From an uncultured Actinomycetes bacterium (lineage in GTDB: Bacteria; Actinomycetota; Actinomycetes; Nanopelagicales; Nanopelagicaceae), in the NCBI GenBank assembly GCA_903838035.1, contig CAILWW010000096.1, positions 14,280 to 78,279 on the forward strand: DNA of 64,000 nt, read 5' to 3'. The position numbers and the translations under genes were made by a program. Positions 22,678 through 24,841 of this stretch are shown piece after piece. Position 1 is the first letter of the stretch. Every line of letters starts with the position of its first letter. The notes under the pieces were generated by a model. That model did no database searches and was not told where the DNA came from. It was given only the letters and a program-made list of their open reading frames with translations.

Positions 22678-23235
22678 TTATGGCGCGCCATAAAGCTGGT
22701 GATCTGCCGCTGCCTTCGTCTGCTCGTCGGCAAAGTGTTTGAGTTCGGCTCGCTTAAAGCCTTTTATCTGCGCCTCTATTTCAAATCCATCACGCTCGAG
22801 GACTCGCTCGAGTCCTAACTCCATGGAGACTTCAATCCAAATTGCAACCGAAGTCGAGCTTCGCATTATTCGTTGCCCCGAACCCACTCCTTCAACGATG
22901 GTGATGGGGGAGGAGTGATAAAGCTGAGGTTCATCATATTTATGAATGAGCCAATCGAATTTTGGTAAATGAAAATTACGACCCGAAGCAACACCAGGAA
23001 GCAATTGATTTTTCAGAAGTGAGGTGAGCTCGCCTGTGAGCGCGCGCTCCCACCCGTTGTACAAGTCATCCATATGAATAACGGTGATTTCGTCACCAAT
23101 TGCTTGCGCGATTTGAGATGCGAGTGTTGTTTTACCCGATCCTGCTGGACCATCGATAGTGATGAGCTTTGATTCGCCACATTTGGGTGGCGATTGCTCA
23201 ATGCTCTGAAGTATGGGCGATAAATGATGTGGCAC
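22678..23235 (-). CDS. P-loop nucleoside-kinase-fold protein (uridine kinase / nicotinamide riboside kinase-like)
   Basis: IDGPAGSGKTT Walker A, IHMDDLY, IVEG and R..ERDG lid; overlaps the pnuC 3' end by 38 nt. Confidence 0.75.
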   Translation of the reverse strand: MPHHLSPILQSIEQSPPKCGESKLITIDGPAGSGKTTLASQIAQAIGDEITVIHMDDLYNGWERALTGELTSLLKNQLLPGVASGRNFHLPKFDWLIHKYDEPQLYHSSPITIVEGVGSGQRIMRSSTSVAIWIEVSMELGLERVLERDGFEIEAQIKGFKRAELKHFADEQTKAAADHQLYGAP

Positions 23236-23815
23236 GAGACTCCTTTAGCCAACGCTTCCAACCGGCAACAGCAATGAGGACAAAGATGAAGTAGAGGATG
23301 GAGGTCAGGTAGTACTTTCCATGCCAGAACTGATAGGTATAGACAGCATCAACAACAAACCAGAGCGGCCAATTCTCATATTTTTCAACCACCATCAAGA
23401 CTTGAGCGACGCAGCTTCCAACAAATCCGAATGCATCGGTGAGTGATGCCGCAGCCCCTACCTTTTTAAGAAGTGGATAGAGCGCGCCCCAAGCAATAAC
23501 TCCGCCAATAGCCCAGTAACTCTTCTCCTTCGTGGTCAGGCGCGCAGGCACTGCACCTTTCTTGCCCCAACCAAACCAACCCCAGAAGCCTCCGGCTATG
23601 AAGATCAATTGCAGCCAAGCACTTGCATAGTATTTCTCTTGCCAGAAGAGAACTGCATATAACATCGAACTGATATTCCACCACGGCCAGGTTGAGCGAG
23701 GACCAAATACACCCAGACCTACTCCAACTACGGAGGTTACGAAGGCGAAAAATTCAAGATAGGTGAGCTGGTATCCCCACGCGGTGAAGAAGACTGCCAT
23801 TAGATGAAAATGCAT
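23198..23815 (-). CDS. pnuC: PnuC-family vitamin transporter (PnuT-like given the riboswitch)
   Basis: LE..AF, W.W.I...LYA..F....YASA.LQ, DA.....S..AQ.LM..K.ENW..W.VVD, GW..W PnuC pattern. Start at ATG 23815 behind SD GGAAAGGGG. Confidence 0.88.
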   Translation of the reverse strand: MHFHLMAVFFTAWGYQLTYLEFFAFVTSVVGVGLGVFGPRSTWPWWNISSMLYAVLFWQEKYYASAWLQLIFIAGGFWGWFGWGKKGAVPARLTTKEKSYWAIGGVIAWGALYPLLKKVGAAASLTDAFGFVGSCVAQVLMVVEKYENWPLWFVVDAVYTYQFWHGKYYLTSILYFIFVLIAVAGWKRWLKESRATSFIAHTSEH

Positions 23816-23821
23816 GATTAA

Positions 23822-23906
23822 CCCCTTTCCAATTCGCATTACCGAACTGGTTCGACGGTCGATCCGAATTTCGGACCCTCTCAGCCAATACAGCGGCTCC
23901 CGTTGT
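23822..23906 (-). ncRNA. TPP (THI-box) riboswitch-like aptamer, variant lacking the J4/5 pyrophosphate-binding bulge
   Basis: The minus strand reads ACGGGAGCC-GCUGUAUU-GGCUGAGAG-GGUCCGAAAUUCGGAUC-GACCGUCGAACC-AGUUCG-GUAAUG-CGAAUU-GGAAAG. P2, P3, CUGAGA, GAACC and the UAAUG loop match the THI box; the CCUGAU and GCG.AGG motifs are missing. Confidence 0.8.
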
Positions 23907-23923
23907 ATTGAACTGTAGCCTTT

Positions 23924-24841
23924 TTATTTGCGGCGTGCGAGGAATGCGCGAAGAAATGCGGGGAGAGCTACTTTGATTCGGCGCCAGGTTGACGTCTTTG
24001 CCCGGTGCGTAAATATTTGATAATCAATCCTTTCGACCTCATCGACAATTCCGCAGTACAGCTCGGAGGCGGTTTGGATGCAGGCTCTACTTTCCGGCGC
24101 AAGCAGTGCAATGCCTGGCTCTGCCTCTCGTTGCAATCTGCGGACGCGGGCAATCTGTTCTTGCAAGGCTGAGCGAATCTGTGGGGTAAGGATGCGCGCT
24201 TCCAGCATCTCATAACTCACGCCATGAGCTTGTAGCTCTGAAATTGGAAGATAGATTCGCCCTCGGTCTAAATCCTCACCCACATCGCGAATGAAGTTGG
24301 CTAGTTGAAAAGCGGTTCCTAATTTTTCGGCGGCCATTACGGTTTCAGGTGCGGTTTCGGGAGAAAGTGAACCCAGGATCGGAAGCATTTCTAGGCCGAT
24401 GACCGAAGCTGATCCATATACATATTCCATTAAATCTTCGTAGCTCTGATACTCGGTGACAGTTAAATCCATCTCCATGGAGTGAAGGAAAGCTTCAAAG
24501 TAGGCAATCGGGATAGAAAATCGCTGCACGGTATCAACCAGTGCTCGACCAATGTGATCATGGCTGCGACCGGCACGAATGTCAGCTAGCACCCCTTGCC
24601 CCCAGGTGCGAAGGTGCTCTGCCTTCTCGGAGTCGGTGAGCTCTGATGCCAGGTCATCGACTATTTCGTCGGCATACCGAGCAAAGCCATAGAGCGCATG
24701 GACAAAGGGGCGCTTCTCCGGCGGGAGGAGCAGGGTCGCTAGGTAATAAGTCTTGCCGTGCAGGGCATTTAGCCGCTTGCATTCAGCATAGGAGGCCCGC
24801 AGGGATGGTTCGGTGATACCAGCACGCGTGAGCTCATCCAT
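23924..24841 (-). CDS. crtB: Phytoene synthase
   Basis: KTYY.AT.LLP, YGFARYADEIVD, SMEMD, FQLANFIRDVGED..RGRIYLP. Confidence 0.95.
   Translation of the reverse strand: MDELTRAGITEPSLRASYAECKRLNALHGKTYYLATLLLPPEKRPFVHALYGFARYADEIVDDLASELTDSEKAEHLRTWGQGVLADIRAGRSHDHIGRALVDTVQRFSIPIAYFEAFLHSMEMDLTVTEYQSYEDLMEYVYGSASVIGLEMLPILGSLSPETAPETVMAAEKLGTAFQLANFIRDVGEDLDRGRIYLPISELQAHGVSYEMLEARILTPQIRSALQEQIARVRRLQREAEPGIALLAPESRACIQTASELYCGIVDEVERIDYQIFTHRAKTSTWRRIKVALPAFLRAFLARRK

What the first reader, a model, noticed from the sequence alone, without database searches (positions are those of the whole stretch)
23822..23906. TPP-riboswitch variant that has lost its pyrophosphate sensor: candidate new ligand specificity
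Seen (minus strand): ACGG/CCGU P2, GCC/GGC P3, the intact CUGAGA pyrimidine-sensing junction, an extra GGUCCGA-AAU-UCGGAUC hairpin, GAACC and the UAAUG L5 loop. However, the P4/P5 arm reads CCAGUUCG-GUAAUG-CGAAUUGG, an uninterrupted 8-bp helix, instead of CCUGAU...GCG.AGG. Known: the J4/5 and J5/4 bulges (G60, C77, G78 in E. coli thiM) bind the pyrophosphate through Mg2+, while UGAGA binds the aminopyrimidine. The clean re-pairing with L5 preserved looks like selection rather than decay. The 3' end overlaps the SD (GGAAAGGGG) of pnuC, implying translational control. Inference: it senses unphosphorylated thiamine, HMP or another pyrimidine compound. Caveats: a convincing P1 is not visible, a TACAGT -10 at 23917-23912 would start the transcript at ~23905, and CAAUACA/UGUAUUG offers an alternative fold.
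Basis: partly seen in the sequence, partly recalled or inferred. Interest (0 to 1): 0.85.

Follow-up and report, generated by a model that had tools for sequence, protein, structure and literature searches.

The report
Vitamin B1 riboswitch without pyrophosphate pocket
The leader of a vitamin-B1 transporter operon in abundant freshwater (acI) actinobacteria is a real, conserved derivative of the TPP riboswitch in which the pyrophosphate-binding bulges are replaced by a plain helix; it probably reads thiamine itself, a kind of variant mentioned in 2017 but never described.

Summary
Window 23829-23903 (minus strand) matches Rfam TPP (RF00059) full length, but at only 35.1 bits against a gathering score of 54.3. 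The pyrimidine-sensing half and loop L5 are intact. Both internal-loop strands of P4/P5 are missing, which leaves an 8-bp helix.

This is neither decay nor an assembly error. The same form occurs once per genome in 137 of 151 genomes of the order, which record titles of relatives place in Candidatus Nanopelagicaceae (acI). P4/P5 shows compensatory changes in 5 of its 8 pairs. The form always precedes a PnuC-family (PnuT-like) transporter gene plus an overlapping P-loop kinase gene. Canonical TPP riboswitches in larger genomes of the same family control thiC, thiO and other transporters.

The genus has ThiL, but I found no ThiC, ThiE, thiamine pyrophosphokinase or ThiK. The operon therefore fits a thiamine to TMP to TPP salvage route.

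A conserved extended -10 box places the RNA 5' end at P2, so there is no P1. The ribosome-binding site abuts P4.

My best reading is a translational, probably OFF, switch that senses thiamine-family compounds without using the pyrophosphate.

This is not wholly new. Kang 2017 called this element a THI element. McCown 2017 cited unpublished P4-P5 variants that bind thiamin. This scan has noted similar variants on other DNA.

The parts
23912..23919 (-). Promoter -10 element TACAGT (23917-23912) with the conserved G at -14 (23919). The predicted transcription start is about 23904-23906.
   Evidence: TAnnnT is invariant in 63 related leaders and lies 7-10 nt upstream of the C of CGGGAG. G at -14 occurs in 60 of 63 and TG in 43 of 63. 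The start site is inferred, not measured.
23829..23903 (-). Variant TPP-type aptamer, from P2 through the P4/P5 3' strand.
   Evidence: RF00059 gives 35.1 bits over the full model. The own model R1 gives 90.4 bits. The RNAalifold consensus and pair counts support it.
23900..23903 (-). P2 5' strand ACGG, which pairs with CCGU at 23855-23858.
   Evidence: Three pairs are invariant. The outer A-U pair changes to G-C in 5 of 73 and 13 of 73 distinct sequences.
23879..23897 (-). P3 hairpin (23897-23884) and the J3/2 pyrimidine-sensor motif CUGAGA (23884-23879).
   Evidence: CUGAGAGG is invariant in 60 sequences. Three of the five P3 pairs show changes on both sides.
23861..23877 (-). P3a insertion hairpin GGUCCGA-AAU-UCGGAUC.
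   Evidence: Five of six pairs covary and 99% of cells are paired.
23829..23850 (-). Zipped P4/P5 arm: CCAGUUCG (23850-23843), L5 GUAAUG (23842-23837), CGAAUUGG (23836-23829). It has no J4/5 or J5/4 bulges.
   Evidence: The bulge positions are deleted in the Rfam alignment. Five of eight pairs show changes on both sides, for example U-A to C-G in 22-24 sequences and A-U to G-C or C-G in 9-18. The L5 bases UAAUGC are invariant.
23822..23830 (-). Shine-Dalgarno region GGAAAGGGG. Its first two G are the closing pairs of P4.
   Evidence: Read directly from the sequence. A purine-rich tail follows P4 in all relatives.
23198..23815 (-). PnuC-family transporter gene (PnuT-like, 205 aa) starting at ATG 23815-23813.
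   Evidence: PF04973 at E 5.5e-36. The start codon column is conserved. The element lies upstream of this gene in 62 of 62 loci with downstream DNA and in 79 of 79 loci found through the protein.
22678..23235 (-). P-loop kinase gene (185 aa) that overlaps the end of the transporter gene. It is the candidate thiamine kinase.
   Evidence: It has only remote similarity to uridine kinase and PRK06547. It is conserved next to the transporter gene. ThiL is present, while TPK and ThiK were not found.

Best explanation
This is a lineage-wide derivative of the TPP riboswitch that forms the 5' end of the mRNA for a thiamine uptake-and-trapping operon (PnuT-like facilitator plus a P-loop kinase) in thiamine-auxotrophic acI actinobacteria.

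The pyrimidine-sensor arm (P2, P3, J3/2 CUGAGA) and the L5 loop, which docks on P3, are kept. The internal loop of P4/P5, which in canonical aptamers binds the pyrophosphate through Mg2+ (G60, C77 and G78 of E. coli thiM; from my own knowledge of the crystal structures), has been closed into a continuous helix.

I infer that the RNA recognises the aminopyrimidine-thiazole part of thiamine and no longer depends on the pyrophosphate. It would then read free thiamine, or the summed pool of thiamine, TMP and TPP.

I also infer that ligand-induced docking of the two arms occludes the ribosome-binding site, which abuts or overlaps the P4 3' strand. This would lower translation of the transporter and kinase when the cell is replete.

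Shown here: the anatomy, the conservation and covariation, the gene association and the pathway context. Inferred: the ligand, the sign of regulation and the transcription start.
For: - Anatomy: RF00059 aligns full length with deletions only at the two bulges.
- Spread: this is the only TPP-like element in the genome. A sub-threshold hit of 30-48 bits occurs once per genome across the family. With model R1, 137 of 151 genomes of the order score at least 69 bits, while canonical TPP elements score 52 bits or less.
- Structure under selection: 94-95% of cells are paired, 14 of 23 pairs change on both sides, and no shuffle out of 500 reaches the observed covariation. This held in two separately gathered sets.
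- Ligand-contact motifs are invariant.
- Gene association: 62 of 62 variant loci carry the transporter and kinase genes, and none of 24 canonical loci does. Of loci found through the protein, 79 of 79 with upstream DNA carry the variant.
- Pathway: ThiL is present in 5 of 5 genomes of the genus. TPK, ThiK and ThiC were found in 0 of 5, and ThiE never reached its cut-off.
- Independent lineage: in family f52, P4/P5 arms without the J5/4 CG precede a pnuT-like gene plus an AAA_28 kinase gene. One canonical element precedes the same operon with the same SD-next-to-P4 platform.
- Literature: McCown 2017 (PMC5473149) states that P4-P5-mutated variants bind thiamin about as well as TMP and TPP. Kang 2017 (PMC5301498) reports thiamine auxotrophy in acI and a THI element before pnuC.
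Against: - No binding or expression data exist for this RNA, and no RNA-seq holder was listed.
- The absence of P1 removes the usual communication helix, so the switching mechanism is conjecture.
- Folding shows a competing pairing of the P2 3' strand with the SD in about 40% of the leaders. This would predict an ON switch instead.
- A zipped variant also precedes a biosynthetic gene (thiO) in another actinobacterium, where sensing the end product would be expected.
- A G-U pair is common in mid-helix, in 56 of 73 and 39 of 73 sequences. It could still hold a metal ion and a phosphate.
- The related genomes are kin, so the counts overstate independence.
Confidence: 0.6

Rival explanations
1. 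It is still a TPP-selective riboswitch. The pyrophosphate would be bound by other means, such as a metal ion at the conserved G-U wobble or at the junction, so the zipped helix is only a structural variant.
For: The G-U pair in mid-helix is the commonest state. A zipped variant precedes thiO in G315, where TPP is the logical signal. One canonical TPP element controls the orthologous pnuT-kinase operon in family f52.
Against: The nucleotides corresponding to C77 and G78 are absent. The G-U pair is replaced by G-C or A-U in 17 of 73 and 34 of 73 sequences. McCown 2017 reports loss of discrimination for P4-P5 mutants.
Confidence: 0.15
2. It is a thiamine-specific ON switch. Without ligand, the P2 3' strand (GACCGU) pairs with the SD. 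Thiamine binding would lock P2, free the SD and induce the transporter and the kinase.
For: The minimum-free-energy folds pair GACCGU with the SD in the window and in roughly 24 of 62 related leaders. There is no P1 and no other C-rich partner for the SD.
Against: The complementarity is short, follows from two motifs that are each conserved for other reasons, and is weak or absent in several genera. Canonical siblings that must be OFF switches have the same layout. Substrate induction of the only uptake route for an essential vitamin is hard to start from zero.
Confidence: 0.12
3. It is a relic aptamer that no longer binds a ligand and is kept as a structured leader for mRNA stability or a fixed translation level.
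For: It falls below the Rfam threshold, has no P1 and has lost the pyrophosphate pocket.
Against: The ligand-contact bases and L5 are invariant while the helices drift with compensation, across at least 137 genomes with streamlined DNA.
Confidence: 0.05
4. It senses HMP or another pyrimidine precursor, or a nicotinamide riboside compound transported by a true PnuC.
For: The HMP pocket is the only part retained. The transporter scores as NMN_transporter/PnuC in Pfam and NCBIfam.
Against: No ThiE and no convincing ThiD were found, so HMP would be of no use to the cell. A second Pnu paralog exists elsewhere in the genome. No Rfam family other than TPP matches the leader, apart from one weak lncRNA hit.
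Confidence: 0.05

Closest known systems
TPP riboswitch (THI element, Rfam RF00059; e.g. E. coli thiM)
   Same: The same fold plan for P2, P3, J3/2 CUGAGA, the P4/P5 hairpin and the L5 UAAU loop. It also sits in the leader of a thiamine-related gene and places the SD next to the aptamer.
   Different: It scores 19 bits below the gathering score. The J4/5 and J5/4 bulges are deleted, leaving a continuous 8-bp helix. There is no P1, and the RNA 5' end is predicted to lie at P2.
P4-P5-mutated TPP variants that bind thiamin, TMP and TPP alike (Roth, McCown, Zhang, Lee and Breaker, unpublished; cited in McCown et al. 2017, PMC5473149)
   Same: [quoted passage not shown] Variants can coexist with canonical TPP riboswitches in one genome (G049).
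   Different: No sequences or data for those variants are available, so identity cannot be checked. The acI form is a specific subclass: fully zipped, without P1, and tied to pnuT plus a kinase.
pnuT-tnr3 operons under canonical TPP riboswitches (Bacteroides thetaiotaomicron, PMC5613172; PnuT facilitated diffusion, PMC5749112)
   Same: A riboswitch precedes a Pnu-family thiamine facilitator and the enzyme that traps thiamine by phosphorylation.
   Different: There the partner is a thiamine pyrophosphokinase and those papers describe the element as a TPP riboswitch. Here the partner is an uncharacterised P-loop kinase and the RNA lacks the pyrophosphate pocket.
HMP-PP riboswitch (thiS motif, PMC6478431)
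   Same: A thiamine-pathway riboswitch with a ligand other than TPP.
   Different: It has an unrelated small fold embedded in a terminator. No Rfam match to it was found here.
NAD+-II riboswitch (pnuC motif)
   Same: It lies upstream of pnuC-family genes.
   Different: It has a different fold and ligand. No match was found in the leader at E up to 10.

Membership tests
TPP riboswitch (RF00059) | Score at or above the Rfam gathering threshold (54.3 bits) | tested here: not met
   35.1 bits. No hit at gathering thresholds. Relatives score 30-48 bits.
TPP riboswitch (RF00059) | Pyrimidine-sensor arm: P2, P3 and J3/2 CUGAGA | tested here: met
   Present and invariant. The helices covary.
TPP riboswitch (RF00059) | Pyrophosphate-sensor internal loop in P4/P5 (J4/5 and J5/4 CG) | tested here: not met
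   Both bulges are deleted in the Rfam alignment. The continuous helix covaries.
TPP riboswitch (RF00059) | L5 loop (UAAU) for docking on P3 | tested here: met
   UAAUGC is invariant in 60 sequences.
TPP riboswitch (RF00059) | P1 helix closing the three-way junction | tested here: not met
   The Rfam alignment flags non-pairs. RNAalifold finds none. The -10 box lies only 7-10 nt upstream of CGGGAG. The 5' end itself has not been mapped.
TPP riboswitch (RF00059) | Selective binding of TPP over thiamine | not testable with these tools
   This needs in-line probing or ITC.
Thiamin-binding P4-P5 variants (McCown 2017, unpublished set) | Mutated pyrophosphate-binding core with the rest of the aptamer kept | tested here: met
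   paper text.
Thiamin-binding P4-P5 variants (McCown 2017, unpublished set) | Thiamin bound about as well as TMP and TPP | not testable with these tools
   No binding data are available. Only context supports it.
HMP-PP (thiS) and NAD+-II (pnuC motif) riboswitches | Match to the family covariance model | tested here: not met
   The E-value search of 23700-24050 listed only TPP and one weak lncRNA hit.

The most novel reading that the evidence does not exclude
The acI element is a separate riboswitch class that is selective for unphosphorylated thiamine and rejects TPP. It would work without P1 as a substrate-induced ON switch: the P2 3' strand acts as the anti-SD, and thiamine turns on a PnuT facilitator together with a previously unknown P-loop thiamine kinase that feeds ThiL.
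Probability: 0.12. Interest if true: 0.8.

Novelty: new variant of a known kind. Interest (0 to 1): 0.55.

Why it matters
- Ecology: according to Kang et al. 2017, acI Nanopelagicaceae are the most abundant bacteria in most lakes and depend on others for vitamin B1. This RNA is the only thiamine-responsive element found in their genomes, and it controls their only evident uptake route.
- Annotation: the element falls well below the Rfam cut-off, so routine annotation misses it.
- Evolution of specificity: it is a clean natural case of a riboswitch losing one of its two ligand-recognition sites by closing an internal loop. The change recurs in a second actinobacterial family and is mainly tied to transporters.
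- Use: if it binds unphosphorylated thiamine well, it would be a natural aptamer for thiamine sensing.
- Enzyme lead: it marks the adjacent P-loop kinase as the likely missing thiamine kinase.

Tried and rejected
- RNA evidence: no RNA holder was listed for window 23000-24300, so the 5' end and expression could not be checked.
- P1: neither Rfam nor RNAalifold gives one. An apparent CCUUUC/GAAAGG helix in one genus overlaps the -10 box and is probably not transcribed.
It is not conserved in the same genus.
- Pseudoknots between the SD tail and the P3 or P3a loops: I saw no conserved complementarity by eye in the alignment.
- The simple sigma-70 scan found no promoter on this strand, because it requires a -35 box. 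It also found no terminator in the leader.
- The ORF start at 23839 is the AUG of L5. It is in frame here by chance and is followed by a stop in other genera.
- The second Pnu paralog (contig C78) has no riboswitch or kinase nearby, so its context is uninformative.
- The PDB sequence search for the kinase gave only remote P-loop, uridine kinase and PRK hits.
- The phylum scan showed that the top 27 non-acI hits keep the J5/4 bulge (usually CG). The zipped form is therefore rare outside acI and family f52 in the genomes sampled.
- Weak ThiD and ThiG matches are partial local hits and were not counted as those enzymes.

Full report
**Observation.**
- P2 ACGG (23903-23900) pairs with CCGU (23858-23855).
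- P3 is 23897-23884 and CUGAGA is 23884-23879.
- A 7-bp insertion hairpin spans 23877-23861.
- The P4/P5 hairpin is CCAGUUCG, GUAAUG, CGAAUUGG (23850-23829).
- GGAAAGGGG (23830-23822) follows, then ATG at 23815-23813.

At Rfam gathering thresholds the whole window has no RNA match. With E-value reporting, TPP (RF00059) aligns over model positions 1-105 at 35.1 bits (E 2e-5, gathering score 54.3). The only deletions inside the arm fall exactly on the two J4/5 and the two J5/4 positions. The downstream protein belongs to the PnuC family (PF04973). The next gene, which overlaps its end, encodes a 185-aa P-loop kinase with remote similarity to uridine kinase. A phytoene/squalene synthase gene ends 10 nt upstream of the Rfam match.

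**Not strain-specific.** This is the only TPP-like element in the 1.35-Mb, 87%-complete genome. In 101 genomes of the same family, 12 carry TPP hits above the gathering score. About 68 carry exactly one sub-threshold hit of 30-48 bits.

Reading these hits shows two clean classes. The canonical class keeps ACCUGAU...GCG.AGG. The variant class has ACCAGUYCG-GUAAUG-CGRAUUGG or compensated versions such as CUGGUCCG/CGGAUC(U)AG and CCGGUUCG/CGAGCC(A)GG. Some variant members have a single bulged base on the 3' strand.

I built a covariance model (R1) from 60 variant sequences. It separates the classes sharply. In 151 genomes of the order, 137 have one hit of at least 69 bits, while canonical elements score 52 bits or less.

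Record titles of related loci name Candidatus Nanopelagicaceae, Planktophila, Nanopelagicus and actinobacterium SCGC AAA044-D11. This places the window in the acI lineage.

**Structure under selection.** RNAalifold recovers P2, P3, P3a and the continuous P4/P5, and finds no P1. On a model-based alignment of 73 distinct sequences, the results were as follows:
- 95.2% of cells are paired, against 85.2% in shuffles.
- 14 of 23 pairs change on both sides.
- No shuffle out of 500 reaches the observed covariation.
- Slid registers collapse to 18-38% paired.

Within P4/P5, five of eight pairs show compensatory change. A second set of 79 loci, gathered through the transporter protein rather than the RNA, gives the same picture. 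These alignments are fitted to the model and the genomes are kin, so the numbers show consistency and are not independent events. The ligand-contact bases of the pyrimidine sensor, and UAAUGC of L5, are invariant.

**Gene association.** All 62 variant loci with enough downstream DNA carry the PnuC-family gene followed by the kinase gene. None of the 24 canonical loci does. Canonical elements in the larger genomes of the family precede thiC, thiO-like oxidases, a cytosine/purine/thiamine-type permease and ABC binding proteins. At least one genome (G049) has both classes. Of 80 loci found through the protein, 79 have the variant directly upstream. The remaining locus has no upstream DNA.

**Pathway context.** I searched five genomes of the genus, four of them 98-99% complete.
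- ThiL (TMP kinase) is present above its cut-off in all five.
- Thiamine pyrophosphokinase, ThiK and ThiC were not found.
- ThiE never reaches its cut-off.
- ThiD and ThiG give only partial local matches.

This agrees with the thiamine auxotrophy reported for acI strains (PMC5301498). It leaves thiamine to TMP as the missing step, and the co-transcribed kinase is the obvious candidate for it. A second Pnu paralog elsewhere in the genome has no riboswitch, so I read the regulated copy as PnuT. Pnu transporters are facilitators that rely on phosphorylation to trap their substrate (PMC5749112, listed).

**Expression platform.** An invariant TAnnnT lies 7-10 nt upstream of the C of CGGGAG in 63 of 63 leaders. 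It has G at -14 in 60 leaders and TG in 43. In the window it is TACAGT at 23917-23912, which predicts a 5' end near 23905. This is at the first base pairs of P2 and leaves no room for a P1 strand.

Canonical TPP leaders of the same family show the same spacing. The lack of P1 is therefore a family habit, not part of the variant change. There is no terminator in the leader.

The SD follows P4 by 0-3 nt, or overlaps its 3' strand in some genera. The same layout occurs in canonical thiO leaders of the family. It also occurs in the one canonical leader of an orthologous pnuT-kinase operon in another family. I therefore favour an OFF switch that hides the SD when the two arms dock.

Folding does show a rival. 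The P2 3' strand can pair with the SD in the window and in roughly 40% of the relatives, which would give an ON switch. Sequence alone cannot decide between the two.

**Wider distribution.** In 150 genomes of the class and 150 of the phylum, no hit outside the order exceeds 57 bits. I inspected 49 of the top non-acI loci; 47 keep a J5/4 bulge, usually CG. Two lack it. One (L124) precedes a pnuT-like gene plus an AAA_28 (NadR-kinase-like) gene. The other (L128) precedes thiO.

I scanned the family of the first exception (f52) and found several forms:
- Zipped forms, one-sided-bulge forms and a partly zipped form (L277/L278) before pnuT-AAA_28 operons.
- One canonical element before the same operon.
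- A third type, with a single G-A mismatch, before YkoE-like ECF/ABC transporter genes.

Closing of the pyrophosphate loop has therefore happened more than once, mostly in front of transporter genes. The tallies include genomes flagged as unpublished (G197, G220, G222, G226, G232, G381). No specific claim here rests on them.

**Prior knowledge.** Kang et al. 2017 found a THI element before acI pnuC by cmsearch and proposed PnuT, without remarking on the arm. McCown et al. [quoted passage not shown] They add that such variants occur in many bacteria and sometimes sit beside canonical ones. I found no later paper that describes them.

Notes from this scan record similar variants on other DNA (e1-5126852, e1-5451263, e1-3913920). 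They also record the neighbouring kinase on this window (e1-5458327).

**Verdict.** The element is real and functionally constrained. It is a defined subclass of the TPP riboswitch family that fails two defining features of that family: the pyrophosphate loop and P1. It most likely reports thiamine-family compounds irrespective of phosphorylation and tunes translation of the thiamine uptake and trapping genes. The ligand preference and the sign of regulation remain to be measured.

Noticed in passing
window 22678-23235 (-), with ThiL at G000:C82:18204-19115: The P-loop kinase overlapping pnuT is conserved with it across the family (motifs GPAGSGKTT, HMDDLYNGW, ILEGVG). ThiL is present, but no known enzyme for thiamine to TMP was found.
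   Followed up: partly
window 23837-23839 (-): The AUG inside loop L5 is in frame with pnuT in this genome, so ORF callers may extend the gene by 8 codons into the aptamer. Other genera have a stop in between.
   Followed up: yes
L002-L016, L027, L053, L082-L088 (canonical TPP leaders of the same family): Canonical TPP leaders in acI genomes also have a TAnnnT box 7-9 nt before ACGGG. Starting the mRNA at P2, without P1, therefore looks like a family-wide design.
   Followed up: partly
L010, L012, L013, L015, L016, L027, L053, L088: Canonical TPP leaders before ABC binding-protein genes carry a downstream CCCGUG (CCGUG in L012). It is complementary to the 5'-terminal CACGGG (the P2 5' strand) and probably acts as an anti-aptamer switching element.
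   Followed up: no
L259, L260, L268, L270 (family f52): A third P4/P5 type reduces the internal loop to a single G-A mismatch. It precedes YkoE-like (PF09819) ECF components, which are fused to ABC ATPases in three of the four loci.
   Followed up: partly
L124, L261-L267, L269, L271-L275, L277, L278 (family f52): pnuT-like genes paired with an AAA_28 (NadR-kinase-like) kinase, which is unrelated to the acI kinase (15% identity). They lie behind zipped, one-sided-bulge or partly zipped (L277/L278) P4/P5 variants. L264 has a canonical element before the same operon.
   Followed up: partly
L128 (G315): A zipped P4/P5 variant (CCGGCCCG / CGGGCC-A-GG) sits in front of a thiO-like oxidase gene in a 3.5-Mb actinobacterial genome. 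This is an exception to the link with transporters.
   Followed up: no
G000:C78:5964-6554 (L178 2426-3118): A second PnuC-family paralog has no riboswitch or kinase nearby. Its neighbours are CopD-like, FUSC-like, nitroreductase and MMPL genes, and its substrate is unknown.
   Followed up: partly
window 23924-24841 (-): The phytoene/squalene synthase gene ends 10 nt before the Rfam match. It lies just upstream of the leader, or one gene away, in most relatives, so any -35 region would lie inside its coding sequence.
   Followed up: no
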